Shown here: positions 6,215-44,685 of the stretch, in pieces
Position numbering within the stretch: the first letter of the stretch is position 1
Layout of the letters: each line of letters begins with the position of its first letter
From: Escherichia phage ECOP18
Sequence record: NC_105825.1
Length of the DNA: 64,000 bases
Strand: one strand, 5' to 3'
Program-made: the position numbers and the translations under genes
Notes under the pieces: generated by a model
Database searches by the model: none
What the model saw: the letters and a program-made list of their open reading frames with translations, nothing else
What the model was told of the DNA's origin: nothing

Positions 6215-6215
6215 A

Positions 6216-7568: not shown

Positions 7569-7644
7569 TGGCTGGAGAAGGAGGAATCGAACCTACCATT
7601 AACGGAGTCAAAGGCCGTTGTGCTAACCGTTACACTACTCTCCA
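7569..7644 (-). tRNA. tRNA-Gln (TTG)
   Basis: Anticodon loop CTTTGAC. Confidence 0.6.
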
Positions 7645-7650
7645 ATTATT

Positions 7651-7726
7651 TGGCTGGGATGCCACGGATCGAACGTGGAACCTTCGGAGTCAGAGGCCGA
7701 CGATCTGCCAATTGATCTACATCCCA
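7651..7726 (-). tRNA. tRNA-Gln (CTG)
   Basis: Perfect T-stem and acceptor stem; anticodon loop CTCTGAC. Confidence 0.65.
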
Positions 7727-7738
7727 ATAATTTTTATT

Positions 7739-7933
7739 CTACGGAAAAATTGTTGTTGGCTCAGATTCTTCCAAACGTTTGCCTTCATGATCAACACGAA
7801 TAACGCCGCATCCTTCGCAAATCACAACTGCACCATAACCTTCTTTGACCTCAGCTTCTGTAATCAAACCAGAAAGATCACCAGTATCTTTACCCCACAT
7901 ATCAATGGAGCATTGTTTGCAGAAATCAGCCAT
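7739..7933 (-). CDS. hypothetical zinc-ribbon-like protein
   Basis: CxxC ... CxxC spacing (CKQC, CEGC). Confidence 0.45.
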   Translation of the reverse strand: MADFCKQCSIDMWGKDTGDLSGLITEAEVKEGYGAVVICEGCGVIRVDHEGKRLEESEPTTIFP

Positions 7934-7958
7934 ATTTTATTTCCTATTTAAGTTAATT

Positions 7959-8035
7959 TGGGGTGGCTAGTGAAATTCGAATCCACATAGGCCTGATTCA
8001 CAATCAGGATCATTAACCAATTATGATATAGCCAC
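7959..8035 (-). tRNA. tRNA-His (GTG)
   Basis: Perfect acceptor and anticodon stems; loop TTGTGAA. Confidence 0.75.
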
Positions 8036-8401
8036 AATTGAAAACTCGCAGGGTTAGCGAAACCTTCCTCAATTAGCATGTTCTAGAATACTAATCAAGT
8101 TATCTCCTATTGCACGCAGCTCAAGACGAGTACGAATTTTCAATTGTGGCGGCTCTCAGAAACTCTTCTACTCTAGTCTTAGCAGCTTACTCCCGAACGC
8201 ATGTCGGGGAAGTCTTACTAAGCGCATCAAATAGCACCGTTACACTTTGAGCCATTGGTGTATTAAGAAGCAGAAGGACTTGAACCTTCACGAGATAGAC
8301 CATTTATCTCAGCCGCTTTATGAGGTATGTTGCAGGGAGTGGATGTTCCCTATAAACCTTTTAGGCAGCCCCGTCTACCGATTCCGGCATACTTCAGGAT
8401 T

Positions 8402-8496
8402 TGGAGGTAGGTAAGGGGATCGAACCCTTACACCGTATCACTACGATCAACCGATTTCAAGTCGGAGTCCAGCGCCAGCCATTGGATTGACCTACC
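8402..8496 (-). tRNA. tRNA-Ser (TGA)
   Basis: Type II, 95 nt; anticodon loop CTTGAAA. Confidence 0.7.
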
Positions 8497-8508
8497 ATAT
8501 AAATTGTT

Positions 8509-8599
8509 TGGCGGAAGAGGAGAGATTTGAACTCTCAAGCCGTTTTACCAGTCAGCCACTTTCCAAGCGGTTTTCGTCACCAATTCGATTTGCTCTTCC
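8509..8599 (-). tRNA. long-variable-arm tRNA, anticodon unresolved (possibly Ser GGA)
   Basis: Perfect acceptor stem and T-arm; D-loop AATTGGTGA; anticodon arm non-canonical by hand. Confidence 0.5.
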
Positions 8600-8711
8600 A
8601 ATAACAAGATGATGCCTCTATCACACCAGGCAGTTACGCCTCGCTGGGATTCGAACCCATTAAAACAGCTCAACCGAGATAGTAGGTTTAATTTACTCTG
8701 ACCATCAAATT

Positions 8712-8788
8712 TGGTGCGTGACAAGGGATTCGAACCCTCAAAACCCGACTTCTAAGGACGGTATGTATGCCAATTCCATCAATCACGC
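8712..8788 (-). tRNA. tRNA, anticodon reads TAG
   Basis: Acceptor and T-arm present; anticodon loop CTTAGAA; short variable arm. Confidence 0.5.
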
Positions 8789-8793
8789 GTATT

Positions 8794-8872
8794 TGGTGGA
8801 GAATAACGGAATCGAACCGTTCTGATGTCCTCGGTGCAAGCGAGGTGTCCACTCCATGCAGACCCATTCCCC
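8794..8872 (-). tRNA. tRNA-Ala (TGC)
   Basis: G3-U70 pair; perfect anticodon stem CCTCG/CGAGG, loop CTTGCAC. Confidence 0.7.
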
Positions 8873-9110
8873 AAATTATTTAGTTTACTAAGGCTATTAG
8901 CTCGGCGTAACTACAGCACCTTCGCTTCGAGCGGAAGGAACCGCGTCATCTCGCAAACCCGATACACTATTCAGTTGCCACTGAATCTAGTGGACTAATC
9001 TAGAACTTCTCCCGAATCGTAGGGATCGTGCTTTTTGGCAGCCAGTCCTAGGTCGAACTAATACCTTAGTGAACTATGATGAGGATTTCTCCTCATCAAT
9101 TTATATAAAT

Positions 9111-9139
9111 ATTATAACAAGAAATTAAGCATTAAGCAA
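9111..9139 (-). promoter_or_regulatory. sigma70-type early promoter reading into the tRNA cluster
   Basis: TTGCTT-N17-TATAAT; no ORF immediately downstream. Confidence 0.55.
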
Positions 9140-9157
9140 CTGCGTTTTTCTTGAAAT

Positions 9158-9236
9158 TGGTAGATCGCCTGGGACTCGAACCCAGAACCTTCCGATTAAA
9201 AGTCGGATGCTACTAAACCTATTGAGCTAGCGATCT
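9158..9236 (-). tRNA. tRNA-Lys (TTT)
   Basis: Perfect acceptor, T and anticodon stems; loop CTTTTAA. Confidence 0.75.
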
Positions 9237-9237
9237 A

Positions 9238-9405
9238 TTAGTAACCATTATACACTTCTTTAATAGAGTGGACTTTTAAGTAAGGGTGATTAGTACTAAA
9301 CTCTACCATTACTTCATCCCAATTTTTACCATAATGAGCGAGTAAGGATTTTGATGTATTCTTACCTAACCGTTTGTCACTTACTACTAATCGAAATACT
9401 TTCAT
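9238..9405 (-). CDS. hypothetical small protein (55 aa)
   Basis: Hand-translated ORF below the ORF-track cutoff, with GAGGA RBS upstream of ATG. Confidence 0.35.
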   Translation of the reverse strand: MKVFRLVVSDKRLGKNTSKSLLAHYGKNWDEVMVEFSTNHPYLKVHSIKEVYNGY

Positions 9406-9425
9406 TTCGAAATCCTCTATTAAAA

Positions 9426-9503
9426 TGGAAGCGGGTGCAGGAATCGAACCTACCTCTTTCTAGCTTATGAGACTAGCGATCTCTACCAGAGATCTAACCC
9501 GCA
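9426..9503 (-). tRNA. tRNA-Met/Ile2 (CAT)
   Basis: Anticodon loop CTCATAA. Confidence 0.6.
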
Positions 9504-9509
9504 ATTGTT

Positions 9510-9585
9510 TGGTCAGTGCGGCAGGACTCGAACCTGCGACCCGAAGCATCCAAGGCTCCCACGCTACCAACTGCGCTACGCACTG
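9510..9585 (-). tRNA. tRNA-Pro (TGG)
   Basis: Perfect acceptor and T stems; loop CTTGGAT. Confidence 0.75.
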
Positions 9586-9594
9586 TTAATTCTT

Positions 9595-9792
9595 TTATTG
9601 TGGAGGAATATTAATAATTCGTCCGTCTACACAATAAACGGTACTAGGAATTGTACTATATATGTAGAAATTCTTTATATTACTCTCTCCGCCACAGAAA
9701 TTTTTAGCAAATTCATACTCTTTATTAATGGTTGAGTCAAGTTTAAAACAACCAGTAAGTAGGAATACAGACAGCAGTAAAACTTTTTTCAT
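9595..9792 (-). CDS. small lipoprotein
   Basis: Signal peptide with lipobox LLTGC; consensus promoter upstream. Confidence 0.5.
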   Translation of the reverse strand: MKKVLLLSVFLLTGCFKLDSTINKEYEFAKNFCGGESNIKNFYIYSTIPSTVYCVDGRIINIPPQ

Positions 9793-9824
9793 TTTGCTTT
9801 CCTTCTCAACACTTTATAAGGTAT

Positions 9825-9853
9825 ATTATACAGAGAATTAAGCATAATAGCAA
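9825..9853 (-). promoter_or_regulatory. sigma70-type early promoter
   Basis: TTGCTA-N17-TATAAT upstream of lipoprotein gene. Confidence 0.6.
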
Positions 9854-10002
9854 ATGAATTTTTAATAAATTTACTTATTGTGTAGGCCACCTGGAGGCTA
9901 CCAACCCCACGGCTGACAAAGAAGTTTGCGAGACCTCTCTTAAGTGCCAGAATAGACCCGCCGATCTATCGGAACCTACATAATAAGTAAACTTTATAGT
10001 GT

Positions 10003-10123
10003 CATTCTAGACAGGACTCGAACCTGTTATCACTTGTGCGGACTTACGAGAACCATTCTTTCACTCGAATCGAACGAGCTTCTGCCCTCGCCAAGCTGGT
10101 TTCCCCATCAACCACGCTAGAAT
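10003..10123 (-). ncRNA. aberrant tRNA-like element (121 nt)
   Basis: Perfect 7-bp end pairing (ATTCTAG/CTAGAAT) and canonical T-arm, but no 7-nt anticodon loop and an extra internal hairpin. Confidence 0.3.
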
Positions 10124-10287
10124 GTTTGATTGTTTTCAGTGCAAGAGTCCGAGTCTTGGACACGACCGCTTCGCAAGTACATAGGCAGCTTATCATGAGT
10201 CAGCACTTCCGAATTGCTAGCTCCGTGTTCTGCACTGAAATTTTATTAGTTTAACCGTAAAGTATTATCTACTTCACCATTAATTGT

Positions 10288-10593
10288 TCAGCATTCTTCT
10301 GGGATTGCTGGTGTAGCCTTATATTCCCACCATTCAGAACCGTCGTATTCACCACGTTCTAACCAAGTTCCATCAGTAAACCACACGTTACCATAAAGCA
10401 ATTGCCCACCGAAACCAGAATCATATTTAAAGTCTAGATTATTTAGAAAATCTTCAATATCTTTTTCTGTATAACCTACGGGTAACACCCAAACTTCTTT
10501 GTCCCCATAATAACCGAATTCTATCTTAATACACTTAACTTCAGAATTAATATTCTTTAAGGCAAGTAACAATTCTTCTTTAGCATTAATCAT
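10288..10593 (-). CDS. hypothetical protein
   Basis: 101-aa ORF. Confidence 0.5.
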   Translation of the reverse strand: MINAKEELLLALKNINSEVKCIKIEFGYYGDKEVWVLPVGYTEKDIEDFLNNLDFKYDSGFGGQLLYGNVWFTDGTWLERGEYDGSEWWEYKATPAIPEEC

Positions 10594-10619
10594 AGCATAT
10601 TTCTCGTACTAGTTTAATT

Positions 10620-10696
10620 TGGCGCGACCGATGGGATTTGAACCCACATTCTCTCCCGTGACAGGGGAGTACCATTACCAAGCCAGCCCCGGTCGC
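10620..10696 (-). tRNA. tRNA-Asp (GTC)
   Basis: Perfect acceptor and anticodon stems; loop CTGTCAC. Confidence 0.75.
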
Positions 10697-10705
10697 ATAA
10701 TTCAT

Positions 10706-10891
10706 TTACTCAGCTTTGAGTTTTTCAATAGCTGCATTAAGTTCTTTAAGAAACTTTTTTCGTACATTAAGACGGTTGAGACTTACTAGTATATCATGTT
10801 TAAGTTCTTCGATGTATTTCTTCTCAACTTCAATATTGTTGATAGTGCTATCACGATGAACTTCTAGCTGTGCAATTACATTCTTGGACAT
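10706..10891 (-). CDS. hypothetical protein
   Basis: 61-aa ORF. Confidence 0.4.
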   Translation of the reverse strand: MSKNVIAQLEVHRDSTINNIEVEKKYIEELKHDILVSLNRLNVRKKFLKELNAAIEKLKAE

Positions 10892-10993
10892 GCTTGTTTC
10901 CTCAGTTATTAATGAAAATGGTATCTGTGACTGAATTCGATGTCAGCAATGATAGCTGGTTGGCTACCGGTTTACTTAACTCTACACAGAATT

Positions 10994-11076
10994 TGGCGGG
11001 CCGTGTAGGATTCGAACCTACGTTGTCTTTCGACATGGATTAACAGTCCACCGCCAAACCGCTTGGCTAACGACCC
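10994..11076 (-). tRNA. tRNA-Asn (GTT)
   Basis: Anticodon loop CTGTTAA; 13-nt variable region. Confidence 0.6.
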
Positions 11077-11228
11077 TAAATTTATATTGCTGACTAGGAT
11101 TTTCACCTAGACGGAGTTAGCACCGTAGCGTGTAGCGGCATACCTCTCCAAACCGTGCCTCATCTTTCAATTACGGAGACAGTGTTCCTACGCGTGCCTG
11201 AATTGATTTAACAACTCTTTCAGCAAAT

Positions 11229-11304
11229 TGGACGACCGCATGAGATTTGAACTCACATAAAAAGGATTTGCAATCCTTCGCCTAAGCCATTCAGCCAACG
11301 GTCG
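11229..11304 (-). tRNA. tRNA-Cys (GCA)
   Basis: Perfect anticodon stem AAGGA/TCCTT; loop TTGCAAA. Confidence 0.75.
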
Positions 11305-11373
11305 ATTTATCTTGTTCTGTCATGTTGCTTCTCCAGTTCAATTTATGTAATTATTATACAGAACTTTTGGAAA

Positions 11374-11661
11374 CTAAGCAACTACATTTTTTAAAAATTT
11401 GATGCCTTTCTTTTTCTTCTTATATTTCCACGTTAAGGGATTCTGTCGATTATGAACGCTTGAGATCTTTGTCTCGTCAAAGTTCTTCAATATCATGTAA
11501 TCACAGGATAATTGTTCTAATGGAATGTGATCACCGTCAAAAGCGTATACATAAGGCTGTTGACTAGCACGATAATGATAGACTTTGTTAATTCTACGTT
11601 TCAGCAACTTATCCGCGCAGTAAATAAAGAAGTTTTCAGGATGCATCAGCAGCTCCCTCAA
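11374..11661 (-). CDS. hypothetical protein
   Basis: 95-aa ORF. Confidence 0.45.
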   Translation of the reverse strand: MRELLMHPENFFIYCADKLLKRRINKVYHYRASQQPYVYAFDGDHIPLEQLSCDYMILKNFDETKISSVHNRQNPLTWKYKKKKKGIKFLKNVVA

Positions 11662-11663
11662 TT

Positions 11664-11737
11664 TGGTGCACCCTGTTCGTATCGAACGAACCTCTCAAGC
11701 TCTTCAGGCAAGCGCTAATCCATCTCAGCTAAAGGTG
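11664..11737 (-). tRNA. tRNA, anticodon unresolved (possibly Phe GAA)
   Basis: CCA, acceptor pairing and T-arm present; anticodon stem imperfect. Confidence 0.4.
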
Positions 11738-11744
11738 CAAATTT

Positions 11745-11821
11745 TGGCAAACCTACTAGGACTTGAACCTAGACCGTACGGTTTTGGAGACCGACATGCT
11801 GTCCAGTAACACTCTAGGAAT
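11745..11821 (-). tRNA. tRNA-like gene, anticodon unresolved
   Basis: CCA and perfect T-arm (CTAGG/CCTAG); acceptor has two mismatches. Confidence 0.3.
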
Positions 11822-11828
11822 GCAGGAT

Positions 11829-11905
11829 TGGCGTCCTGTGCGGGGATCGAACCCACAAATCCTACCTTGAAAGGGTAGTGACTTTACCAGTTTGTCTAAC
11901 AGGAC
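11829..11905 (-). tRNA. tRNA-Glu (TTC)
   Basis: Perfect acceptor and anticodon stems; loop CTTTCAA. Confidence 0.75.
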
Positions 11906-11911
11906 TTAAAT

Positions 11912-12003
11912 TTGGTGTTGGATGATGGAGTCGAACCACCCGAGACCCTTCCGAGTCGGCAGATTTACAGTCTGCTTCGCTACCTCTACGATACTAATCC
12001 AAC
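11912..12003 (-). tRNA. tRNA-Tyr (GTA)
   Basis: Type II, 92 nt; perfect anticodon stem GCAGA/TCTGC, loop CTGTAAA. Confidence 0.75.
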
Positions 12004-12131
12004 ATATTTAAAAGTATTCAAATACTAGTTTAAACACTTTTAGATATGTTTCCAAATTAGATAACTATTATATCAAGTTTTATGGCACTGAGCAAGTCAA
12101 ATTTTAAAGAACTTGCTCAGTGCTGTATTAG

Positions 12132-12407
12132 TTAGTCGAACTTAGGAGCGACAGTTAAGGAGAATGGAAGTTCGAAAACTTCTTCGCCCTCATCACTAAC
12201 AGTAATTACACGACCTTTAAGTTCAGACATTGAAATATCAATATCAGCTTTTGCATCTGGAGCCATGCCAGCTTCAATACATTTAGCTTTAACTTCCGGC
12301 AGAAGTTCTACATCGTAGAAATAAAGCCATTCAATCTCACCTTCCCAGCCTTCCCAGGATTTACAGATTGCACTTTCAATACCAGTTGCTATAACACGAT
12401 TTTGCAT
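12132..12407 (-). CDS. hypothetical protein
   Basis: 91-aa ORF; long hairpin downstream. Confidence 0.5.
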   Translation of the reverse strand: MQNRVIATGIESAICKSWEGWEGEIEWLYFYDVELLPEVKAKCIEAGMAPDAKADIDISMSELKGRVITVSDEGEEVFELPFSLTVAPKFD

Positions 12408-12497
12408 TCGTTAACTCCTTCATCAATTTATATAACTATTATACCAGAAATTTAAAGCAAAAGGCAAGTACATTTTTAAAAATTCTGTTTGGAGGAG

Positions 12498-12704
12498 CTA
12501 AACTCCAGATTCTTCAGCTAAGTCTAGGCTAATAAGAGATATAGCCATAATTGCTGCTCCGTGTTCTCTTTCTCCTGTCTCTTTAGCTAGGGTTATAATA
12601 TCAAGAAATTGCTTATGAAAGTCTGCAACCTCTTGAGTCATACCTGCCTCAGCAATCATGCCTTTAAGCATGAAACGTTGTGCGGTAATTTCGGGATTAG
12701 CCAT
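12498..12704 (-). CDS. hypothetical protein
   Basis: 68-aa ORF. Confidence 0.45.
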   Translation of the reverse strand: MANPEITAQRFMLKGMIAEAGMTQEVADFHKQFLDIITLAKETGEREHGAAIMAISLISLDLAEESGV

Positions 12705-12864
12705 GTTGTTTCTCCAGTTTCATGTTTAATAGTCTACAAATAAAATCAATGTCTTCATCTGTGCCTAGATCTCTATCTTCAAGAGTTGCCTTGAAGTTTT
12801 TCGTCAATTCCATGAGGATAACTTCTATAGAACGACGTGTTGGCGGAGGTGGATGTCTATACAT
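12697..12864 (-). CDS. hypothetical small protein (55 aa)
   Basis: Hand-translated ORF with AAGGAAA RBS; stop overlaps start of next gene. Confidence 0.35.
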   Translation of the reverse strand: MYRHPPPPTRRSIEVILMELTKNFKATLEDRDLGTDEDIDFICRLLNMKLEKQHG

Positions 12865-12879
12865 CTTATTTCCTTAAGT

Positions 12880-12956
12880 TGGTAGGGGTGGTGGGATTCG
12901 AACCCACAAAACCTGAATTTTAAGTCCAGTACCTATGCCAATTCGATTACACCCCC
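12880..12956 (-). tRNA. tRNA, anticodon reads TAA (Leu-decoding) with short variable arm
   Basis: Perfect T-arm; anticodon loop CTTAAAA. Confidence 0.55.
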
Positions 12957-13057
12957 ATGTAATCAGTTTATTAGTTGATACATATTATAGCCTAGTGAAA
13001 ATCCTACTACTAGTCCCACAAACCAACCAATATAATAATCTTTTAGTTTCACAGGTA

Positions 13058-13243
13058 TTATCCTCGTTCAATATCTAGGGAAACACCGCAGTTAGGATTA
13101 ATACCTGTACCGTTGCAATTTGAACAAATCCAGATATTGCAAAAAGTATCTCCTGCTTCTGCATCAGAACTTTCACCAATTCCCCTACACTCAGGGCAGG
13201 CACATTCTTCTAGCTCTTGCTTGAGTTCTTGAAACTTGGACAT
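13058..13243 (-). CDS. DnaJ-type zinc-finger mini-protein
   Basis: Two CxxCxGxG repeats (CPECRGIG, CSNCNGTG). Confidence 0.5.
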   Translation of the reverse strand: MSKFQELKQELEECACPECRGIGESSDAEAGDTFCNIWICSNCNGTGINPNCGVSLDIERG

Positions 13244-13252
13244 ATAGTCTCC

Positions 13253-13441
13253 TTAGTCAATTACTTTTGAGGCTTCAAGGGAGTCGATATAGTATACGTT
13301 TTCTACCATAATCATATAATCTGCCACTTTATCCATAGCTTGGGCCTCAGAGGTAGCTCTGGCTAACCTATATCCTTTTTTATATTCATCCGGGTATTCT
13401 CTATCTTGAATAAATACAACATAAACTATGTATAATTCCAC
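13253..13441 (-). CDS. hypothetical protein
   Basis: Track ORF 13253-13588 runs through two tRNA genes; trimmed to in-frame GTG with AGGGGA RBS. Confidence 0.35.
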   Translation of the reverse strand: MELYIVYVVFIQDREYPDEYKKGYRLARATSEAQAMDKVADYMIMVENVYYIDSLEASKVID

Positions 13442-13461
13442 TTGTAATCCCCTAATTAAGT

Positions 13462-13539
13462 TGGTGGCTCCCCGAGGATTCGAACCTACGTACCTTCCGG
13501 TTATGAGCCGGGTGCTCATACCATATGAGCTTGAGAACC
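13462..13539 (-). tRNA. tRNA-Met/Ile2 (CAT)
   Basis: Anticodon arm CCGG/CCGG with loop CTCATAA. Confidence 0.55.
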
Positions 13540-13545
13540 AGAATT

Positions 13546-13634
13546 TGGCGGAAGAAGTGGGAATCGAACCCACAAGGCTATATTTCAAACCGACAGATTA
13601 GCAATCTGCTGCAATACCGTTATGCTATTCTTCC
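13546..13634 (-). tRNA. tRNA-Ser (GCT)
   Basis: Type II, 89 nt; perfect acceptor and T stems; loop TTGCTAA. Confidence 0.75.
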
Positions 13635-13655
13635 GAATTTATAAGATATATTATA

Positions 13656-14174
13656 TTAGAAATTTAGCTTCATAGCAAGAAAATTTTTCAAGTTTTCGGT
13701 AGACATCTCATCCACATCTACGGGAGAAACAAAGCCGTTTAATTTTCTAGCAAATTTTTCACCCGCAGGATCGTTGTCTCCGACAGCTACCAATTTAAAA
13801 GGTAATAATTTCAGTTGCTTTAATAACGCTTTTCCTGGAGAAGAACCTAACATTGCCAGGGCTGGATAACCAGCGTTATGTAGCGCAACTGCCTTAAATA
13901 CAGATTCAGCGATCAATACTACTTTTTCATCTCCATTGAGAGTTTCTAGTCCCCATACACACTGGGTAGTAGAATAAGTAAAATATTTAGCTTCAAAGGG
14001 ACACTTACTATGACCTTTTGGAGCAGAAGGATTATACGTCTGATAGCCTCGCAACATCCCGGAGAAGTCATACAACGGGACTGTTAGCCATCCTTCCGGA
14101 CTTAACCAGCAATGATATTTATCTGTATCAAATCCTCTGGATAAGAGGTGCTGTGTTAGCTCATCAACATTCAT
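13656..14174 (-). CDS. Toprim-domain protein
   Basis: Conserved Glu (VVLIAES) and DxD (VAVGDNDPAG); start set to MNVDELT downstream of the promoter. Confidence 0.5.
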   Translation of the reverse strand: MNVDELTQHLLSRGFDTDKYHCWLSPEGWLTVPLYDFSGMLRGYQTYNPSAPKGHSKCPFEAKYFTYSTTQCVWGLETLNGDEKVVLIAESVFKAVALHNAGYPALAMLGSSPGKALLKQLKLLPFKLVAVGDNDPAGEKFARKLNGFVSPVDVDEMSTENLKNFLAMKLNF

Positions 14175-14349
14175 ATTTGGTTCCTCTCTCAAATTTATAG
14201 ATATATTATACAGAGAATTTAGCATTCAAGCAATCAAATTTTTTAACTTTTTAGAGGAAAATCATAGGGCACTTAAGGGTAGCAGATAAGTGGGGAGGAC
14301 CAAAATTTGTGACCCCACTAAAAATCCGGGGGCAATTTTTAAAGACCCC

Positions 14350-14378
14350 TTGACATTTTCGCTGGGGTAGTGTAAAGT
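14350..14378 (+). promoter_or_regulatory. sigma70-like promoter for rightward cassette
   Basis: Consensus -35 TTGACA, 17-nt spacer, TG then TAAAGT. Confidence 0.5.
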
Positions 14379-14440
14379 ATATGTTATGGATGAGTGATCA
14401 AAGAGACACACATTTTCTATATACTAGGAGGTGTCAAAAT

Positions 14441-15430
14441 ATGACAGAAGAAGTAGCTAAGAGTCCTGAGACCGTCGCTAGCGTTGCAGCAGAACTGCAC
14501 CGTCACGAGGAATCAGATAAGAAAAAGTGGGAGAAGGTCAGAGTCTACGAAGAAAAACATCGTGAACACGATGATGAAGAAGAAGATGACGATGATGAAC
14601 ATTGTCATAAATATGGAAAACATAAAATGCAAGAACCAGTAAACGTATTCACTAGTGGCTTCCCTGGCCTACTGGGTGGTTACCCAGCAAACGCAGGTGC
14701 TTTCGGTGGTGAAGGTATGGGACTATTCGGAGCTATCCTAATCGGTGCTCTATTAACCGGCGGATTCGGTGGTTTCGGTGGATTCGGTGGACGTGGTGTA
14801 GTTGGTGAAGGTACCGCAGTTGATGCAGTACTTCAGAACCAAGATACCGCTAGTATTCTAGCAGCTATCAACACTACTCGTACAGAGGCTAACCAGGGTA
14901 CTGGAGCTGTTTTAAGCGCAGTTAACAATGGTTTTAGCCAGACAACCCAAAACCAGAGCCGTGATACTCAGTCTGTACTAACTACGATCTACGGTACAGG
15001 TGCTAATCTGTCTAATCAGATCTGCCAGGAAACTCGCAACGTTATTCAGGGTCAGTTCGATCTTTCTCGCCAGATTGATCAATCTTTCGCAGCTAACCAG
15101 ATAGCTCGTGCACAAGATAAGTTTGATTCTGCACAGATCGCTTTCCAGCAGACTTTACAAACTAATAACCAGTTTGCCGCTGTTCAGGCTCAGATGTGTG
15201 CTAACCAGAACTCTCTGGAACGTCAGATCGCTGAATGTTGCTGTGAACTTCAGACTGCGATCGCTGGTGTAACTACTGCGCGTATCCAGGATGAGTTAGA
15301 CGCATGTCGCCTACGTGAAGCAATCGCTGCGGGTAGCGGTGCTAACGGTCAGGTAATTAATCAAATCGCTTTAAGTCTTGGTGCTATCACTCAGACTCTG
15401 GCTGGTCTGCAGGCTAAACTGCCGGCTTAA
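14441..15430 (+). CDS. low-complexity protein (acidic/His-rich N-terminus, Gly-rich hydrophobic segment, Q/N/A/T-rich C-terminal region)
   Basis: AGGAGGTG RBS before ATG at 14441; GGFGGFGGFGG segment; host-like codon usage; own promoter. Confidence 0.6.
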   Translation: MTEEVAKSPETVASVAAELHRHEESDKKKWEKVRVYEEKHREHDDEEEDDDDEHCHKYGKHKMQEPVNVFTSGFPGLLGGYPANAGAFGGEGMGLFGAILIGALLTGGFGGFGGFGGRGVVGEGTAVDAVLQNQDTASILAAINTTRTEANQGTGAVLSAVNNGFSQTTQNQSRDTQSVLTTIYGTGANLSNQICQETRNVIQGQFDLSRQIDQSFAANQIARAQDKFDSAQIAFQQTLQTNNQFAAVQAQMCANQNSLERQIAECCCELQTAIAGVTTARIQDELDACRLREAIAAGSGANGQVINQIALSLGAITQTLAGLQAKLPA

Positions 15431-15451
15431 TATTAAGGGGAGGAGCCCCTT

Positions 15452-15868
15452 ATGAGTAAATATGGTTTTGTAAATAACGGACTTAATCAAAGTATGGGCT
15501 CCCAGCAGCCCATTCCGGGTCTGGATAACCCCTACTTACAACAGTTGCAACAGCGTTTAGCAGAAGCGCAACAGATGCAGCAACAACTCCAGCAAAACCC
15601 TGGAAGTGTGAGTCCTATGCAAATGATGCAGCAAATGAGCGGGCAGTCGCAAATGCCTCAACAAATGCAGCAACAGGTGCCTCAGCAGCAAGTTCAGCAA
15701 CAAACCCAACAACCGCAGGTTTCTGCGGAAGGACAGGCAGTACTAGCCCTTTTCGAAGACTTCGCAAAGACAGAGGATGGGAAACAGCTTGTATCACTTA
15801 TGGGTAAGTTTAATAGCTTCTGCCAAAGCCAAGTTGCAAAAGCTCAAAATGGGGGTAGTAACTCCTAA
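15452..15868 (+). CDS. Gln/Met-rich low-complexity protein
   Basis: GGGGAGG RBS; runs of QQ/MQQ. Confidence 0.55.
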   Translation: MSKYGFVNNGLNQSMGSQQPIPGLDNPYLQQLQQRLAEAQQMQQQLQQNPGSVSPMQMMQQMSGQSQMPQQMQQQVPQQQVQQQTQQPQVSAEGQAVLALFEDFAKTEDGKQLVSLMGKFNSFCQSQVAKAQNGGSNS

Positions 15869-15877
15869 GGAGGAAAT

Positions 15878-16072
15878 ATGTGTTGCAGAAAATCTGTTTC
15901 GTGCTGCCCAGTGCCTGTAGCACGTTGTTGCTCTCCAGCAATGTTTACGCAAATACCGGCGTTCAATCCCTTTGCCTTTAAACCTACTCTTATCCTGCCC
16001 CCTAGAGTAGATTTTCAGTCAAGATTGGCCTCCCGTATGGGTGGTTGCTGTACACCGAGAGTATGGTTCTAA
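15878..16072 (+). CDS. Cys-doublet small protein
   Basis: AAGGAGG RBS; CC doublets; followed by terminator. Confidence 0.5.
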   Translation: MCCRKSVSCCPVPVARCCSPAMFTQIPAFNPFAFKPTLILPPRVDFQSRLASRMGGCCTPRVWF

Positions 16073-16082
16073 ACCAAAAACA

Positions 16083-16118
16083 AAAGCCCCTGCCGAAAGG
16101 TAAGGGGCTTTTTCTTTT
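16083..16118 (+). terminator. rho-independent terminator ending rightward cassette
   Basis: Hairpin AGCCCC/GGGGCT then TTTTTCTTTTG. Confidence 0.65.
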
Positions 16119-16124
16119 GCCTTA

Positions 16125-16165
16125 AATACAGAAAAGCCCGCGCTCTCGTAGGAAACGCGGGCTTG
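16125..16165 (-). terminator. rho-independent terminator after SPFH gene
   Basis: Hairpin AGCCCGCG/CGCGGGCT then T-run on minus strand. Confidence 0.6.
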
Positions 16166-16187
16166 GTTCGAAGATTACGTGTAACTA

Positions 16188-17135
16188 TTACTTGTTACGC
16201 ATATCCATGATCATTTGACCATCGTAGCCAGTACCTACCACAGTCTGAGGTACACCACCTTGATACTTCTGAGCACGGATCATTTCAACTTCCAGTTGTT
16301 TCCAACGAATCATTTCAGGAGTAATGGTACGTTGCAATGCGGCGTTAGCTTCAGCTTCTTTCTTAGCTGCGTACAGTTTAGCATCTGCGTCACGTTCATT
16401 AGCAATAGCTTGGTTGTTACGAGCTTCACGATCTGCTTCTGCTTGTTTAACTTTTTGCTGTGCTTCCTGTTCAACGCGAGCAAGTTCAGCTTTCGCAGCA
16501 TTAACTTGCTCTTCACGAACTTTGGTATTCTGTACCTGTTCCATGATTACTGGCGGCAAGGTAATATCCTGAAGGAATACCTGCTTAACTGTGTAACCAT
16601 ATGGGCGCGCATACTCTTCAACTTCCTGTTGAATTGCAGTTTGCAATTGAGCCTGAATTTTAGCATCAAATAAATCTTGTGCTTTAGGTACAGACTTACC
16701 AAACTCACGAATAGTAGACAGTAATTTTTCAGTTACATACTTGTCTAGTGCCTGATCCTGAGTACCTGCGTTAATACGGTTAATCGGTGCTTTAGAACCA
16801 TCAAACTGCAACATAACAGTCAGGTCAACAGTGGATTTAAACTTATCCTGGCTAGGAACCTGAAGTTTATCTAATTTTACAGCAATATCTTTTGTACTAA
16901 AAGTATCGAAAGATGCAAACGGGTTTACAAGATGGAAGCCCGGCAATACTGGATTAGGGTCTACTTTACCCAGGAATGTTTGGGTTTTAACCGTACCATC
17001 AGAAACAATAGTATATGAATTAAAAGCTAGGATTAAACCTGCTAAACCAACTACAGCACCAATACCCCAACGTTTAATAGTACGAATTACTTTCTGCTCA
17101 GAAGTCAGTTCTTTCATATTTTTAGTAGCAAACAT
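16188..17135 (-). CDS. SPFH/band-7 (stomatin/prohibitin/HflC-like) membrane protein
   Basis: N-terminal TM, SPFH-like core, Ala/Gln/Glu-rich coiled-coil C-terminus. Confidence 0.55.
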   Translation of the reverse strand: MFATKNMKELTSEQKVIRTIKRWGIGAVVGLAGLILAFNSYTIVSDGTVKTQTFLGKVDPNPVLPGFHLVNPFASFDTFSTKDIAVKLDKLQVPSQDKFKSTVDLTVMLQFDGSKAPINRINAGTQDQALDKYVTEKLLSTIREFGKSVPKAQDLFDAKIQAQLQTAIQQEVEEYARPYGYTVKQVFLQDITLPPVIMEQVQNTKVREEQVNAAKAELARVEQEAQQKVKQAEADREARNNQAIANERDADAKLYAAKKEAEANAALQRTITPEMIRWKQLEVEMIRAQKYQGGVPQTVVGTGYDGQMIMDMRNK

Positions 17136-17169
17136 ATATTTCCTTTGTTTTAGTTACAGTTAATAAAAT

Positions 17170-17244
17170 TGGCCGAGGTGACAGGATTCGAACCTGCATA
17201 AAGGAATTTAGAAGACTCCTGCCTCTCCCTTAGACTACACCCCG
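17170..17244 (-). tRNA. tRNA-Arg (TCT)
   Basis: Anticodon loop CTTCTAA. Confidence 0.65.
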
Positions 17245-41393: not shown

Positions 41394-41699
41394 ATGAGCG
41401 AACAGGTAAATCAAAACTATGATGGACACGTTGATGACCAGTCCATCATACTTTGGGAGAAGGAGGGAGAACAAGTAAGATTAACAGTATCTGAATTTCG
41501 TGGGAATCTATACATGGGTATTCGTTACTGGCTTCTTGATATTAATGATGAATGGTTTCCAACGAAATCTGGCTTCTCTTTTCCTTACACCCTAGAAACA
41601 ACATCACAGCTTTTCTATGCGTTTACACAGATTCTTAGCGAATCTGAGGTTTTACATGAAGTACAGAAACGAGCTGAAGAACTCAAAGCCAAGAACTAG
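41394..41699 (+). CDS. hypothetical protein
   Basis: 101-aa ORF. Confidence 0.5.
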   Translation: MSEQVNQNYDGHVDDQSIILWEKEGEQVRLTVSEFRGNLYMGIRYWLLDINDEWFPTKSGFSFPYTLETTSQLFYAFTQILSESEVLHEVQKRAEELKAKN

Positions 41700-41772
41700 G
41701 CATTCTTGGCTTTTTCTTTATAAATGTATTTGCTTTCAACTCAGTTTTGTTATATAATATTTATATAAATTA

Positions 41773-41988
41773 ATGAGAGGATTAATCATGGCAATGACAG
41801 TAACACTTCCCAAGATTCAAGCAAAACTTAATCTACTTTCCACAGCACGCATTAATTATCAGGATAACATAGGCACAGTAAATCAAAAGGTGTACAAAGA
41901 TGCGTTTCTGAAAGAATCTGCTGATTTGATGGATATGGTTACACAATATAATAAAGAACTCAAGATGGAAATCGCCGATGATGAATAA
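41773..41988 (+). CDS. hypothetical protein
   Basis: 71-aa ORF behind consensus promoter. Confidence 0.45.
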   Translation: MRGLIMAMTVTLPKIQAKLNLLSTARINYQDNIGTVNQKVYKDAFLKESADLMDMVTQYNKELKMEIADDE

Positions 41989-42952
41989 TGTAAAAGACTT
42001 TATTAAGCGTTGTCAAGAAGCATATTATCAAGGCATGTCTTTAATCTCTGACGAAGAATATGATCGTCTGATTAAAAGATTTCCACTAGAAGAAGAGATC
42101 GGGCCTAAGGGTGATATTCCACACCTGTATCGTATGTATTCTTTACAGAAAGTTTATTATAATCGTGGAGATAAACCTCCGTTTAACCCATTAGGTCAGG
42201 TGGAAACTGATAAGTTAGATGGTTGTGCGATTTCTCTGCTATATATTAATGGCGATTTTGTTCAAGCACTAACTCGTGGTAACGGTATTTTAGGAAATGA
42301 TGTCACAAGCAACGTAAGATTGCTGAACATCCCCAAAAAGATTTCCCAAAAAGTACCTACTCAAATCACTGGTGAAGTTCTAATTACAAAAGAAGTAGAA
42401 AATAAACGTAACTTTGCCTCTGGTGCTATTAACCTCAAAGATAGCGATGATTTCGTACAACGTATCGGGGAAGGTGGTTTAATCTTCGTTGCATATGGTA
42501 TCCAGTGTTCTGCTGAATCTGTAGGTATTACAGAAGCATATTTAAAAGATATGCTTTGGCTAGAGAATGAGAACTTCTTAACAGTTGTTAATGTGCGTTC
42601 CTTCTTTAAATGGATTCCGACGGACGGTAAAGTTGTCCGTATTAATGATAACAACAAATTCTTCCGAGAAGGCTGGACTAATAAATTCCCTCGTGGAGCA
42701 TTCGCTATTAAAGAGGATGAAGAAGGCGAGATTACAACCCTTACTAAAGTTGAATGGCAGGTAGGGGCTTCTGGTAAAGTAACTCCAGTTGGTTATTTCG
42801 AACCGGTAATTATTGATGATGCTACAATTGTTAAAGCGACTCTTAATAACGTTGATTATATTAACTCTCTTGATTTAGAGATCGGTTGCCAGATTCGAGT
42901 GATTCGTGCTGGTGGTGTAATCCCGTGCATAGTAGAGCGAGTATACGATTAA
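41978..42952 (+). CDS. lig: NAD-dependent DNA ligase, N-terminal adenylation fragment
   Basis: KxDG adenylation motif (ETDKLDGCA). Confidence 0.65.
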   Translation: MMNNVKDFIKRCQEAYYQGMSLISDEEYDRLIKRFPLEEEIGPKGDIPHLYRMYSLQKVYYNRGDKPPFNPLGQVETDKLDGCAISLLYINGDFVQALTRGNGILGNDVTSNVRLLNIPKKISQKVPTQITGEVLITKEVENKRNFASGAINLKDSDDFVQRIGEGGLIFVAYGIQCSAESVGITEAYLKDMLWLENENFLTVVNVRSFFKWIPTDGKVVRINDNNKFFREGWTNKFPRGAFAIKEDEEGEITTLTKVEWQVGASGKVTPVGYFEPVIIDDATIVKATLNNVDYINSLDLEIGCQIRVIRAGGVIPCIVERVYD

Positions 42953-43095
42953 TACATAACCCTTTGCTACCCATCTACCATATCGGAATTATAAAGTGGT
43001 TATTGACATTTTCGCCGCTTAGGTATATACTATTATCATTCAGTTGAGGGATAGAAAGTTATGGCGAGGGTAAGCAAAGTTAGTTAAAATTGTAG

Positions 43096-43124
43096 TTGCT
43101 AAATGCTTAAATACTTGCTATAAT
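43096..43124 (+). promoter_or_regulatory. sigma70-type promoter inside the split ligase locus
   Basis: TTGCTA-N17-TATAAT upstream of the second ligase ORF. Confidence 0.55.
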
Positions 43125-43151
43125 ATTTATATAAATTGATAAGGAAGAAAT

Positions 43152-43925
43152 TTGATGAAAATCGAAATTCCAACACAATGTCCCTCTTGTGGTTCTAAGC
43201 TAGATCTTGTCAACGGACAATTATTCTGTCGGAATAAGTCCAACTGTCCAGCGCAATCAAGTAAGTTAATTGAGAACTTCTGTTCAAAAATGAAGTTAAA
43301 GGGCTTTGGCCCGAAAACTATTGAGAAGCTGGAGCTGACGAAGATTTCAGAACTCTTTTACCTAACCGAAGAAGATTTGGTTAGAGCCGTGGGTAGTAAG
43401 GTTGCCGCTAAGTTAATTAGCGAATTAAATACTAAAGTTCGCGGAGACATTGACTTTGGTTCAGTTCTCGGTTCTTTAGGAATCCCTCTAATTGGAGAGG
43501 TTGCAGCAAAGAAATTATCCCAAAATTGCACTAGCTTCCATGATGTGAAGGCTGACGGCAAGGCTGGAGAAAATTATAAAGCCTGGCTAAATTCCCCACA
43601 AGGCAAGGATGTTATCGAATTACCGTGGAAATTCTCAACTGGTGCTAAAGCTAAAACCGTCGTTACTGATGATTTAGTTGCCCAGCCAAATGGAATCGCG
43701 GTATGTATTACCGGATCTTTGCAAGATTTTGCAAATCGAACGGATGCAACAAACTACTTAGAAGGTCTAGGATACACGGTTAAGAAATCCGTTACCAAAG
43801 ACGTCAAATACCTAATCTGTGAGGATGAATCAAAACGTTCTTCCTCATCTTATAAGAAAGCCGAAACGAATGGGATAGAAATCCTGTCGATTAAAGAACT
43901 ATTGGAGAAAAATAATAATGTCTAA
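43152..43925 (+). CDS. lig: NAD-dependent DNA ligase, C-terminal fragment
   Basis: LigA-type zinc finger (CPSCGSKL ... CRNKSNC) with helical and BRCT-like tail; own promoter and RBS. Confidence 0.65.
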   Translation: MMKIEIPTQCPSCGSKLDLVNGQLFCRNKSNCPAQSSKLIENFCSKMKLKGFGPKTIEKLELTKISELFYLTEEDLVRAVGSKVAAKLISELNTKVRGDIDFGSVLGSLGIPLIGEVAAKKLSQNCTSFHDVKADGKAGENYKAWLNSPQGKDVIELPWKFSTGAKAKTVVTDDLVAQPNGIAVCITGSLQDFANRTDATNYLEGLGYTVKKSVTKDVKYLICEDESKRSSSSYKKAETNGIEILSIKELLEKNNNV

Positions 43926-44685
43926 ACTGAACTGGAACGTAGAAGGTGTAACCGAGTCTCTGAAAGCAAAAGCCACTGCTCTGGGTGTTGCTGTAATCTC
44001 TCAAGAACAAGTAGCTGCTATCGCTGCTGAACTGGCCGCTGAAACTGGCAAAGATGTTACCGCTCGCTCTGTTGGCTCTAAACTGCGTAAAGAAGGTTTT
44101 GAAGTACAGAAAGCTAACGAAGTACAGAAATCCCCGTGGACTCCTGAGCAGGAAGCTGAACTGGTTGATTTCCTGAACGCTCATGCTGGTCAGTATACCT
44201 ATGCTGAAATCGCTGCTGCTGTGGCTGGTGGTCAGTTCGGTGCTAAGCAGGTACAGGGTAAGATTCTGAGTCTGGAAATGACCGCTTCTGTTAAGCCAAC
44301 CGAAAAAGCTGCTGCTGTTCGTTCCTTCACTCCAGATGAAGAAACTGATTTTGTTAATCAGGTTGTTGCTGGTGCTACTATTGAAGCTATCGCTGCTCAC
44401 TTCGGTCGTAATATTAAGCAGATCCGCGGTAAAGCTCTGAGCCTGCTTCGTGAAGGTCGTATCGCTGCTATGCCGGTACAGGAAACCTCAAGTGCTAAAA
44501 CTAGTGAAGATCTGTTAGAAGGTCTGGATCTGGTTAACATGACTGTTGCTGAGATCGCTGAGAAAACTGGTAAGTCTGAGCGCGGTGTTAAATCTATGCT
44601 GTCTCGTCGTGGTCTGGTTGCTAAGGACTATGATGGTGCCGCTAAGCGTGCTAAACTGGATGCAAAAGCTGCGGCTGCTGAATAA
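43918..44685 (+). CDS. repeat HTH-like DNA-binding protein
   Basis: Four tandem ~55-aa repeats; GC-richer host-like codons; terminator downstream. Confidence 0.55.
   Translation: MSKLNWNVEGVTESLKAKATALGVAVISQEQVAAIAAELAAETGKDVTARSVGSKLRKEGFEVQKANEVQKSPWTPEQEAELVDFLNAHAGQYTYAEIAAAVAGGQFGAKQVQGKILSLEMTASVKPTEKAAAVRSFTPDEETDFVNQVVAGATIEAIAAHFGRNIKQIRGKALSLLREGRIAAMPVQETSSAKTSEDLLEGLDLVNMTVAEIAEKTGKSERGVKSMLSRRGLVAKDYDGAAKRAKLDAKAAAAE

What the first reader, a model, noticed from the sequence alone, without database searches (positions are those of the whole stretch)
41978..43925. NAD-dependent DNA ligase split into two ORFs with a promoter between them
The adenylation-domain ORF (KxDG) ends at 42952 and the zinc-finger/BRCT ORF starts at 43152, separated by ~200 bp containing a TTGCTA-N17-TATAAT promoter. 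This may be a functional two-subunit ligase or a gene disrupted by an insertion remnant.
Basis: partly seen in the sequence, partly recalled or inferred. Interest (0 to 1): 0.5.

Follow-up and report, generated by a model that had tools for sequence, protein, structure and literature searches.

The report
Phage T5-type two-subunit DNA ligase
This is the well-known two-gene (ligA/ligB) NAD-dependent DNA ligase of T5-like phages, with the known early promoters between the two genes; it is real and functional but not new.

Summary
The window is a T5-like phage (Tequintavirus, 97.8% identical to phage VEc33). ORF 41978-42952 encodes domain Ia, the adenylation domain and the OB domain of an NAD-dependent ligase. 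ORF 43155-43925 (true start ATG 43155, not TTG 43152) encodes the Zn finger, HhH and BRCT domains. The 202-bp spacer carries two tandem sigma-70 promoters, not one, and has stop codons in all frames.

All of this is already annotated in phage T5 (dnlj1/dnlj2 or ligA/ligB, promoters T5P36/T5P37). [quoted passage not shown] A homologue from phage PR1, about 55% identical, has been solved as a heterodimer on nicked DNA (PDB 9HU3, 9I5I).

The split sits in the OB-Zn linker and loses only about 6 linker residues. It recurs at the same point in every Demerecviridae genus and T5-like contig I opened. Both halves are intact, and substitutions in ligA are mostly synonymous. I found no intron, intein, homing endonuclease or frameshift.

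New side results:
- Unsplit compact orthologues (555-586 aa) exist in syntenic environmental T5-like contigs.
- Other lineages carry unrelated small genes between the halves.
- The spacer is unusually conserved, about 0.5% divergence against 3-5% around it.

Verdict: already known, low interest.

The parts
41685..41713 (+). Terminator-like hairpin ending the upstream transcription unit
   Evidence: The equivalent site is annotated as a putative rho-independent terminator in T5 record AY587007.
41730..41777 (+). Early promoter serving orf71 and ligA (equivalent of T5P35). TTGCTT-N17-TATAAT plus a copy of the 25-bp promoter-core repeat at 41753-41777.
   Evidence: Sequence read. Repeat match with 2 mismatches. 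T5 annotation of T5P35 and 'repeat b copy 4'.
41773..41988 (+). 71-aa ORF of unknown function that overlaps the ligA start by 11 nt. Present in phage DT57C, absent in T5.
   Evidence: (no Pfam hit).
41978..42952 (+). ligA: ligase subunit A, 324 aa. Shortened domain Ia, nucleotidyltransferase domain (K79 of KLDG) and OB fold.
   Evidence: Pfam. PDB 9HU3_A at E=4e-104. Alignment to E. coli LigA. AlphaFold model with pLDDT 87.5 matches 9hu3_A/9i5i_A at TM 0.84-0.85.
42953..43154 (+). 202-bp non-coding spacer between the two ligase genes. Stops in all three frames. Nearly invariant among Tequintaviruses.
   Evidence: No Rfam family reaches significance.
43003..43031 (+). First spacer promoter (equivalent of T5P36): TTGACA-N17-TATACT. 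Predicted transcription start near 43038.
   Evidence: T5 annotation. Conserved in position in the Roth39, Eos, DU_PP_V and PSTCR5 phages.
43096..43124 (+). Second spacer promoter (equivalent of T5P37): TTGCTA-N17-TATAAT with extended -10 TG. Predicted transcription start near 43131.
43119..43143 (+). 25-bp promoter-core repeat ('repeat b' in T5 record AY587007): -10 box plus initial transcribed region.
   Evidence: 6 copies in the window, 0 expected. T5 'repeat b copy 5'.
43141..43147 (+). Ribosome-binding site AAGGAAG of ligB, 7 nt before ATG 43155
   Evidence: Sequence read. Records KP143763.1 and NC_134264.1 list a ribosome_binding_site feature under the matched spacer.
43155..43925 (+). 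ligB: ligase subunit B, 256 aa. Four-Cys zinc finger, HhH domain and BRCT domain. Its stop overlaps the start of the D5 gene by 8 nt.
   Evidence: Pfam. PDB 9HU3_B at E=1e-81. Alignment.
43918..44685 (+). D5 DNA-binding protein gene, in the same transcription unit as ligB. It serves as a synteny marker.
   Evidence: Homologues follow the ligase in every related contig examined.

Best explanation
ligA (41978-42952) and ligB (43155-43925) encode the two subunits of the heterodimeric NAD+-dependent DNA ligase typical of T5-like phages (Demerecviridae).

Subunit A carries the NAD+/NMN-binding domain Ia, the nucleotidyltransferase domain with the active-site lysine K79, and the OB fold. It can therefore adenylylate itself from NAD+ and perform the chemistry. 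Subunit B supplies the zinc finger, the helix-hairpin-helix domain and the BRCT domain. In single-chain LigA these complete the clamp around nicked DNA. The two chains associate non-covalently to seal nicks and Okazaki fragments during phage replication.

The break lies exactly in the OB-Zn linker. The 202-bp spacer is a regulatory region, not a scar. It carries two tandem early sigma-70 promoters and the ligB ribosome-binding site. As a result, ligB and the downstream D5, helicase and primase genes receive transcription in addition to read-through from the ligA promoter.

Shown here: domain content, collinearity with LigA, conservation, intact catalytic residues, and homology to a solved heterodimer-DNA complex. 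Inferred: activity of this particular pair, use of the promoters, and a higher output of B than of A.
For: - Identity of the locus: 97.8% to Escherichia phage VEc33. [quoted passage not shown]
- T5 record AY587007 annotates dnlj1, promoters T5P36 and T5P37, repeat b, and dnlj2 in exactly this layout.
[quoted passage not shown] 2005 (PMC1684257). T5 ligA and ligB are listed as subunits in PMC3632103.
- Domains: Pfam aden and OB in A, BRCT and HhH in B.
- Alignment to E. coli LigA: A ends near Eco residue 394 and B starts near Eco 401, so only about 6 linker residues are absent. K115, R136, E173, R200 and K314 equivalents, the domain Ia YY..SDEEYD motif and the four Zn Cys are all conserved. These residues are invariant in 26 A-subunit homologues.
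- Solved structures: 9HU3 and 9I5I chains A and B match at E=4e-104 and 1e-81. They are titled 'PR1 phage heterodimeric DNA ligase in complex with 21-mer nicked DNA'. The AlphaFold model of A matches them at TM 0.84-0.85.
- Selection: ligA synonymous to non-synonymous codon differences are 40:6, 43:5 and 19:3. Both ORFs are intact in all relatives examined.
- The split point is the same in Tequintavirus, Priunavirus, Hongcheonvirus, Thalassavirus, other Vibrio phages and metagenomic T5-like contigs.
- A truncated archaeal LigN with the same domain content as subunit A still forms the enzyme-adenylate (PMC1684257).
Against: No biochemical assay exists for this exact phage's proteins, and the paper describing the PR1 structures was not in the searchable library.

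The promoters are 'putative' even in the T5 record, and promoter-like hexamers are not enriched in this AT-rich region.

ligB shows a less skewed synonymous to non-synonymous ratio (13:10, 18:8, 10:9) and a 3-codon indel relative to the three relatives. Where they can be read against T5, the indel and several replacements lie in the linker before BRCT.

The E. coli K290 equivalent is Arg in the five phage sequences aligned and invariant in 26 A-subunit homologues. The consequence is untested here.
Confidence: 0.93

Rival explanations
1. The ligase is a dead gene. An insertion destroyed a single-chain LigA, the two ORFs are decaying fragments, and the phage relies on host LigA.
For: Unsplit compact orthologues exist in syntenic T5-like contigs, so an interruption event did happen at some point. 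ligB has a relatively high share of non-synonymous differences.
Against: Both ORFs are intact, and the break sits at the same point in every genus and contig examined. Hundreds of records carry both halves. ligA is under clear purifying selection. All catalytic and Zn-binding residues are kept. ligB has its own RBS, ATG and promoters. A homologous pair crystallised as a heterodimer on nicked DNA.
Confidence: 0.02
2. The split is a sequencing or assembly artefact, a frameshift in a single gene.
For: None beyond the bare fact of two adjacent ORFs.
Against: The ORFs are 202 bp apart and in different frames. Every frame of the spacer has at least 4 stops. The spacer is 99-100% identical in 211 deposited genomes. 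The same layout is seen in distant genera with 116-bp to 1.4-kb intervals.
Confidence: 0.005
3. The two ORFs are expressed as one polypeptide, through an intron, a split intein, or ribosomal bypassing like T4 gene 60.
For: The two halves are collinear with single-chain ligases and lose almost nothing at the junction. The RNA from the spacer folds better than shuffled controls in this phage (z = -3.7).
Against: No Rfam intron or other family reaches significance (best 17.8 bits against a gathering score of 49). No Hint or intein domain is present, and there are no extra residues at either end. ligB has its own RBS and conserved ATG. PDB chain B starts at that Met as a separate chain. Other lineages have one to three complete genes between the halves. 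No conserved RNA structure or covariation was found across genera (consensus -3.5 kcal/mol).
Confidence: 0.01
4. The split was created and is maintained by a mobile element, a homing-endonuclease 'genes-in-pieces' arrangement as in Aeromonas phage Aeh1 nrdA. The spacer would be what is left of that element.
For: The interval between the halves is a hotspot for extra DNA. Thalassa has 3 ORFs, D375 has 2, L015 and L016 have 1 each, and the rest have 116-202 bp of non-coding DNA. T5-like genomes carry many HNH genes; one lies 2.2 kb upstream of ligA in L015.
Against: None of the inserted ORFs matches an endonuclease in Pfam or PHROGs; only the five Vibrio-phage ORFs were scanned. One of them is DprA-like and the rest are of unknown function. 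The inserted ORFs are unrelated to each other, and none leaves a detectable trace in the T5-type spacers. The spacer is occupied by conserved promoters.
Confidence: 0.05

Closest known systems
Bacteriophage T5 ligA/ligB (dnlj1/dnlj2; AAU05253/AAU05254; GenBank AY587007, AY543070)
   Same: Same genes in the same order. The A subunits are 323 and 324 aa; ligA DNA differs by about 5% (6 of 323 codons differ non-synonymously) and the spacer by 1 of 202 bases. The same two promoters and the same repeat are present.
   Different: Only strain-level differences. A 71-aa ORF lies upstream of ligA here but not in T5, and there is a 3-aa indel in the ligB linker.
PR1 phage heterodimeric DNA ligase (PDB 9HU3, 9I5I; chain B is identical to Providencia phage PSTCR5 ligB)
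   Same: Same two-chain architecture and the same break point. By tblastn, chain B is about 54% identical to the ligB of T5-group phages. The window proteins match chains A and B at E=4e-104 and 1e-81. The predicted fold of A matches at TM 0.84-0.85 with 52-54% identity.
   Different: Different genus (Priunavirus) and host. The spacer sequence differs but keeps two tandem promoters.
Bacterial single-chain LigA (E. coli LigA, PDB 2OWO)
   Same: Same domain order Ia-NTase-OB-Zn-HhH-BRCT and the same catalytic residues.
   Different: One 671-aa chain against 324 + 256 aa in two chains. The phage form has a shortened domain Ia, a shorter NTase domain and a shorter HhH domain, and Arg in place of K290. 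Identity in the structural alignment is about 26%.
Compact single-chain ligases of uncultured T5-like phages (P0152, P0160, P0172 and others; 555-586 aa)
   Same: 39-46% identical to subunit A. They sit in the same neighbourhood: (PC4-like in L014) - ligase - D5 - DnaB - primase - PolA. The junction is collinear...IPKIINVLSSGTGRIIAPTECPSC... against ...IPCIVERVYD|MKIEIPTQCPSC....
   Different: They are not split. They are known only from metagenome contigs.
Genes-in-pieces created by homing endonucleases (Aeromonas phage Aeh1 nrdA-a/mobE/nrdA-b) and the T4 gene 39/60 topoisomerase split. Recalled from my own knowledge, not tested.
   Same: An essential phage replication enzyme encoded as two adjacent genes whose products reassemble.
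   Different: No endonuclease gene lies between the halves in any locus examined. There are no bypass signals.

Membership tests
NAD+-dependent DNA ligase (LigA family) | Nucleotidyltransferase motif I KxDG with the active-site lysine | tested here: met
   K79-L-D-G aligns with E. coli K115-L-D-G. K79, D81 and G82 are invariant in 26 homologues. Pfam PF01653 scores 82.8 bits against a cut-off of 27.
NAD+-dependent DNA ligase (LigA family) | Domain Ia with the NMN-binding residues that confer NAD+ specificity (E. coli Y22, D32, Y35, D36) | tested here: met
   AYYQG...ISDEEYDRL aligns with YHVMD...IPDAEYDRL. Y16, E27, Y28 and D29 are invariant. The domain is about 25 residues shorter than in E. 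coli.
NAD+-dependent DNA ligase (LigA family) | Other catalytic residues (E. coli R136, E173, R200, K290, K314) | tested here: met
   R100, E133, R144 and K245 are conserved. The K290 position is Arg (R221) in all phage forms, a conservative change whose effect was not tested.
NAD+-dependent DNA ligase (LigA family) | OB-fold domain after the NTase domain | tested here: met
   Pfam PF03120 scores 78.4 bits against a cut-off of 32.9. Residues 215-321 align with 2OWO residues 284-390.
NAD+-dependent DNA ligase (LigA family) | Four-cysteine zinc finger, HhH domain and BRCT domain | tested here: met
   CPSC...C...C in ligB aligns with E. coli C408, C411, C426 and C432. BRCT scores 32.7 bits against a cut-off of 21.3. 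HHH_2 scores 24.6 bits, below its cut-off of 27, but the region aligns with LigA residues 402-529 and with 9HU3_B.
NAD+-dependent DNA ligase (LigA family) | All domains on one polypeptide | tested here: not met
   Two ORFs 202 bp apart, in different frames, with stops in every frame between them. It is therefore the split variant, not a canonical LigA.
NAD+-dependent DNA ligase (LigA family) | NAD+-dependent nick sealing | not testable with these tools
   This needs an enzyme assay. Indirect support comes from a homologous heterodimer solved on nicked DNA.
T5-type heterodimeric ligase (LigA/LigB of Demerecviridae) | A subunit of about 320 aa ending just after the OB fold, and B subunit of about 250 aa starting at the Zn finger | tested here: met
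   324 aa and 256 aa. The break falls at the same alignment columns as in T5, PSTCR5, Thalassa and D375.
T5-type heterodimeric ligase (LigA/LigB of Demerecviridae) | Strong sequence homology of both chains to the characterised pair | tested here: met
   9HU3_A at E=4e-104 and 9HU3_B at E=1e-81. The nearest phage record, VEc33, is 97.8% identical over the region; ligA and ligB DNA differ from T5 by 5.0% and 3.5%.
T5-type heterodimeric ligase (LigA/LigB of Demerecviridae) | Position in the early replication cluster: ligA - ligB - D5 - DnaB helicase | tested here: met
   The same order holds in all related loci.
Homing-endonuclease 'genes in pieces' | An endonuclease gene (HNH, GIY-YIG or LAGLIDADG) between the two halves | tested here: not met
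   No ORF of 60 aa or more lies within the spacer. The inserted ORFs of the two Vibrio phages match no endonuclease family. The single ORFs in L015 and L016 have no Pfam hit on record.
Intron- or intein-interrupted gene | A structured intron RNA, or Hint-domain residues at the junction | tested here: not met
   The best Rfam hit in 42700-43400 is 17.8 bits, far below gathering scores. There is no Hint domain and no surplus residues.

The most novel reading that the evidence does not exclude
The 202-bp spacer may be more than two promoters. It is almost invariant: 1 of 202 differences to T5 and DT57C, where ligA differs by 5% and neighbouring intergenic stretches by 4-6%. 211 genomes are at least 99% identical to it. 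Its length of about 190-200 bp and its tandem-promoter layout are kept across several genera.

It could therefore be a cis-acting control module. One option is a device that sets the LigB:LigA ratio or the timing of the D5-helicase-primase operon. Another is a transcription-activated replication origin of the kind T7 has at its tandem phi1.1A/B promoters (that comparison is from my own knowledge).

Separately, the scattering of unsplit forms among split ones in the tree leaves open repeated splitting or re-fusion.
Probability: 0.1. Interest if true: 0.45.

Novelty: already known. Interest (0 to 1): 0.12.

Why it matters
The feature shows that a six-domain replication enzyme tolerates being cut at the OB-Zn linker and reassembled from two gene products. 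This matters for ligase engineering and for understanding how phages place promoters inside operons. That point was made for T5 in 2005 and now has crystal structures, so this window adds only another instance. The modest additions here may help anyone studying how and why the split arose. They are the unsplit syntenic orthologues, the variable cargo between the halves, and the unusually conserved spacer.

Tried and rejected
- Frameshift or artefact: rejected. The frames differ, every frame has stops, and independent genomes share an identical spacer.
- Intron or other RNA family: the Rfam E-value scan of 42700-43400 gave only noise.
- Conserved RNA structure in the promoter-1 leader: the window folds at z=-3.7. 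RNAalifold on five genera gives -3.5 kcal/mol with essentially no covariation, and single-sequence z-scores range from -0.8 to -3.2. Not supported.
- Homing endonuclease or common mobile element in the gap: Pfam and PHROGs on the inserted ORFs of the two Vibrio phages, all-against-all BLASTP of six inserted ORFs, and tblastn of those ORFs against five spacers all found nothing.
- Replication-origin idea: the cumulative GC-skew minimum is at about 30 kb, where gene orientation switches, not at 43 kb. There are no direct repeats or iterons in the spacer. The only repeat is one imperfect 14-nt inverted repeat bracketing promoter 1. No support.
- Phylogeny to count split events: the NJ tree of 126 A-domain sequences is star-like. 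Unsplit forms are mostly basal, but P0152, P0160 and P0191 nest among split ones. Unresolved.
- Search for the paper behind 9HU3/9I5I: five full-text searches found none in the held library. Wang et al. 2005 is not held.
Full report
**What is there.** The window is a T5-like phage genome segment. Region 41700-44100 is 97.8% identical to Escherichia phage VEc33. It matches 447 phage records, almost all Salmonella or Escherichia Tequintaviruses.

ORF 41978-42952 (324 aa) and ORF 43152-43925 exist as described. The first hits Pfam DNA_ligase_aden and DNA_ligase_OB. The second hits BRCT and HhH models. TTGCTA-N17-TATAAT lies at 43096-43124.

Two corrections apply.
- The ligB start is almost certainly ATG 43155, not TTG 43152. 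It lies 7 nt after AAGGAAG. The TTG is not conserved in the Roth39, Eos or PSTCR5 phages. T5 is annotated from the ATG, and the crystallised homologue starts MKIQIP.
- A second, stronger promoter match, TTGACA-N17-TATACT, lies at 43003-43031.

**It is already annotated and named.** The T5 record AY587007 lists dnlj1, 'putative early promoter T5P36', 'T5P37', 'repeat b copy 5' and dnlj2 in exactly this arrangement. The window spacer differs from T5 by 1 of 202 bases. [quoted passage not shown] 2005. It also shows that an archaeal LigN cut down to Ia+NTase+OB still forms the enzyme-adenylate (PMC1684257). A T5 helicase paper lists ligA and ligB as subunits (PMC3632103).

**Junction and catalytic residues.** I aligned A+B of this phage, T5, PSTCR5, Thalassa and D375 with E. 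coli LigA. Subunit A ends near E. coli residue 394 and subunit B begins near residue 401. Only about six residues of the OB-Zn linker are missing, and every domain is accounted for.

These features are conserved:
- motif I K79-LDG;
- R100, E133, R144 and K245 (E. coli R136, E173, R200, K314);
- the domain Ia motif YY..SDEEYD;
- the four zinc cysteines.

The same residues are invariant in 26 A-subunit homologues. The E. coli K290 position is Arg in all phage forms. Domain Ia, the NTase domain and the HhH domain are each shorter than in E. coli.

**Not an artefact, intron, intein or bypass.** ligA and ligB are in different frames, and each frame of the spacer has at least four stops. Rfam finds nothing near significance. 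There is no Hint domain and there are no surplus residues. ligB has its own RBS and start codon.

**Evidence of function.** Against T5, DT57C and phA11, ligA shows 40:6, 43:5 and 19:3 synonymous to non-synonymous codon differences. ligB shows 13:10, 18:8 and 10:9, plus a 3-codon indel relative to all three; against T5 the indel lies in the linker before BRCT.

PDB entries 9HU3 and 9I5I contain a 339-aa chain A (E=4e-104 to ligA) and a 248-aa chain B (E=1e-81 to ligB). The chain-B sequence read from that alignment (244 residues) is 100% identical to ligB of Providencia phage PSTCR5.

An AlphaFold model of subunit A (pLDDT 87.5) matches those chains at TM 0.84-0.85. The entries are titled 'PR1 phage heterodimeric DNA ligase in complex with 21-mer nicked DNA', one with the 'phage nick sequence' and one with a random sequence. 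They were released in January and February 2026. A homologous pair has therefore been solved as a heterodimer clamped on its substrate. I could not find the accompanying paper in the library.

**Distribution.** A ligB homologue is present in 930 phage records. These include Salmonella, Escherichia, Klebsiella, Providencia, Proteus, Pectobacterium, Serratia, Aeromonas and many Vibrio phages. The weakest hits are probably single-chain ligases.

In every Demerecviridae locus I opened, the break is at the same place. What lies between the halves varies:
- 189-202 bp of non-coding DNA in the window, T5, DT57C, phA11, Roth39, Eos, DU_PP_V and PSTCR5;
- 116 bp with a TTGACA-N17-TATAAT in metagenome contig L017;
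- one ORF of 99 or 123 aa in L015 and L016;
- two ORFs in Vibrio phage D375;
- three ORFs in Thalassa, one of them DprA-like.

The inserted ORFs are unrelated to one another. None of those scanned matches a nuclease family, and none leaves a trace in the T5-type spacers.

**Unsplit relatives.** An exhaustive HMMER search with subunit A found about 60 clusters (50% identity) of 304-339-aa proteins. Interleaved with them at 39-46% identity are about 15 compact single-chain ligases of 555-586 aa.

Two of these were traced to contigs, P0152 and P0160. They sit in T5-like neighbourhoods: PC4-like protein (in L014) - ligase - D5 homologue (37-43% identical to the window's D5) - DnaB - primase - PolA. 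Their junction reads ...IPKIINVLSSGTGRIIAPTECPSC..., against ...IPCIVERVYD | MKIEIPTQCPSC... here. It is fully collinear.

The split therefore most likely arose from such a compact single-chain gene, when a stop, a spacer and a start entered the linker. A neighbour-joining tree is too star-like to say whether this happened once.

**The spacer.** The two promoters keep their positions in Klebsiella phage Roth39, phage Eos, Pectobacterium phage DU_PP_V and Providencia phage PSTCR5. The second promoter's -10 and initial transcribed region form a 25-bp repeat. It occurs six times in the window against none expected, always oriented with the local genes. One copy lies at 41753-41777, ahead of orf71 and ligA. 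Each ligase gene thus has its own copy of the same early-promoter module.

No terminator-like site was found in the spacer. ligB should therefore be reached by read-through from the ligA promoter as well as from the two spacer promoters. This is inference.

The spacer is strikingly conserved. It has 1 of 202 mismatches to T5 and to DT57C, and 3 of 202 to phA11. By comparison, ligA differs by 2.5-5.3%, ligB by 2.7-3.5%, and other intergenic stretches mostly by 4-6%. In a wider search, 211 records are at least 99% identical to it.

I looked for a further function and found none that holds up:
- no conserved RNA structure;
- no iterons;
- no GC-skew feature.

**Verdict.** The finding is real and the 'functional two-subunit ligase' reading is right. 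It is the textbook T5 ligA/ligB arrangement, with its annotated promoters and a solved heterodimer structure in a sister genus. Novelty: already known. Interest: low (0.12). The only open threads are the unusually invariant spacer and the number of split or fusion events in the family.

Noticed in passing
window 42953-43154: The ligA-ligB spacer is much more conserved than its surroundings. It has 1 of 202 mismatches to T5 and DT57C, against about 5% in ligA and 4-6% in other intergenic stretches. 211 phage records are at least 99% identical. Two 70-bp promoters cover most of it, but not all.
   Followed up: partly
window 42962-42975 and 43066-43079: An imperfect 14-nt inverted repeat (CTTTGCTACCCATC / GAGGGTAAGCAAAG, 79% complementary) brackets the first spacer promoter. 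It is not conserved in Roth39, Eos or PSTCR5 and may be chance.
   Followed up: partly
window 4322-4346, 6727-6751, 9092-9116, 12419-12443 (minus strand); 41753-41777, 43119-43143 (plus strand): Six copies of a 25-bp promoter-core repeat, TATAATATTTATATAAATTGATAAG with up to 3 mismatches, against none expected. Each is oriented with the local genes. It corresponds to 'repeat b' of T5 record AY587007.
   Followed up: partly
loci L011 5790-7490 and L014 6001-7674 (metagenome contigs): Unsplit compact (566 and 557 aa) orthologues of the T5 ligase sit in syntenic T5-like environmental contigs. About 15 such 50%-identity clusters exist. I do not know whether these have been described.
   Followed up: partly
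loci L004 1140-2343, L005 2051-2511, L015 4466-4765, L016 4459-4830: In other lineages the interval between ligA and ligB holds one to three small genes. They are mutually unrelated. One is DprA-like, and in Pectobacterium phage DU_PP_V the DprA-like gene sits upstream of ligA instead.
   Followed up: partly
window 41773-41988: The DNA just upstream of ligA varies in content. A 71-aa ORF is present here and in DT57C but absent in T5. Phage phA11 has an extra 90-aa ORF in the same place.
   Followed up: no
window ligA residue R221 (codon at 42638-42640): The position of E. coli LigA K290 (motif IV) is Arg in all split and compact phage ligases aligned, and invariant in 26 homologues.
   Followed up: no
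window 5895-17244, minus strand: A cluster of 21 tRNA genes, typical of T5-like phages. GC skew changes sign near 30 kb and 58 kb, where gene orientation switches.
   Followed up: no
public records OR848168.1 (Listeria phage LM 4-14-1) and protein P0012 (Enterococcus faecalis, partial): Records labelled as Listeria phage and Enterococcus carry sequence identical to the T5-like ligase region. They are probably contamination or mislabelling.
   Followed up: no
locus L010 1402-1445 (phage Eos spacer): In phage Eos the ligA stop is followed by an 8-bp stem (ATTGACTC...GAGTCAAT) and a T6 run, which looks like a terminator. The T5 group lacks this (read from the alignment). Transcriptional independence of ligB may therefore differ between genera.
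   Followed up: no
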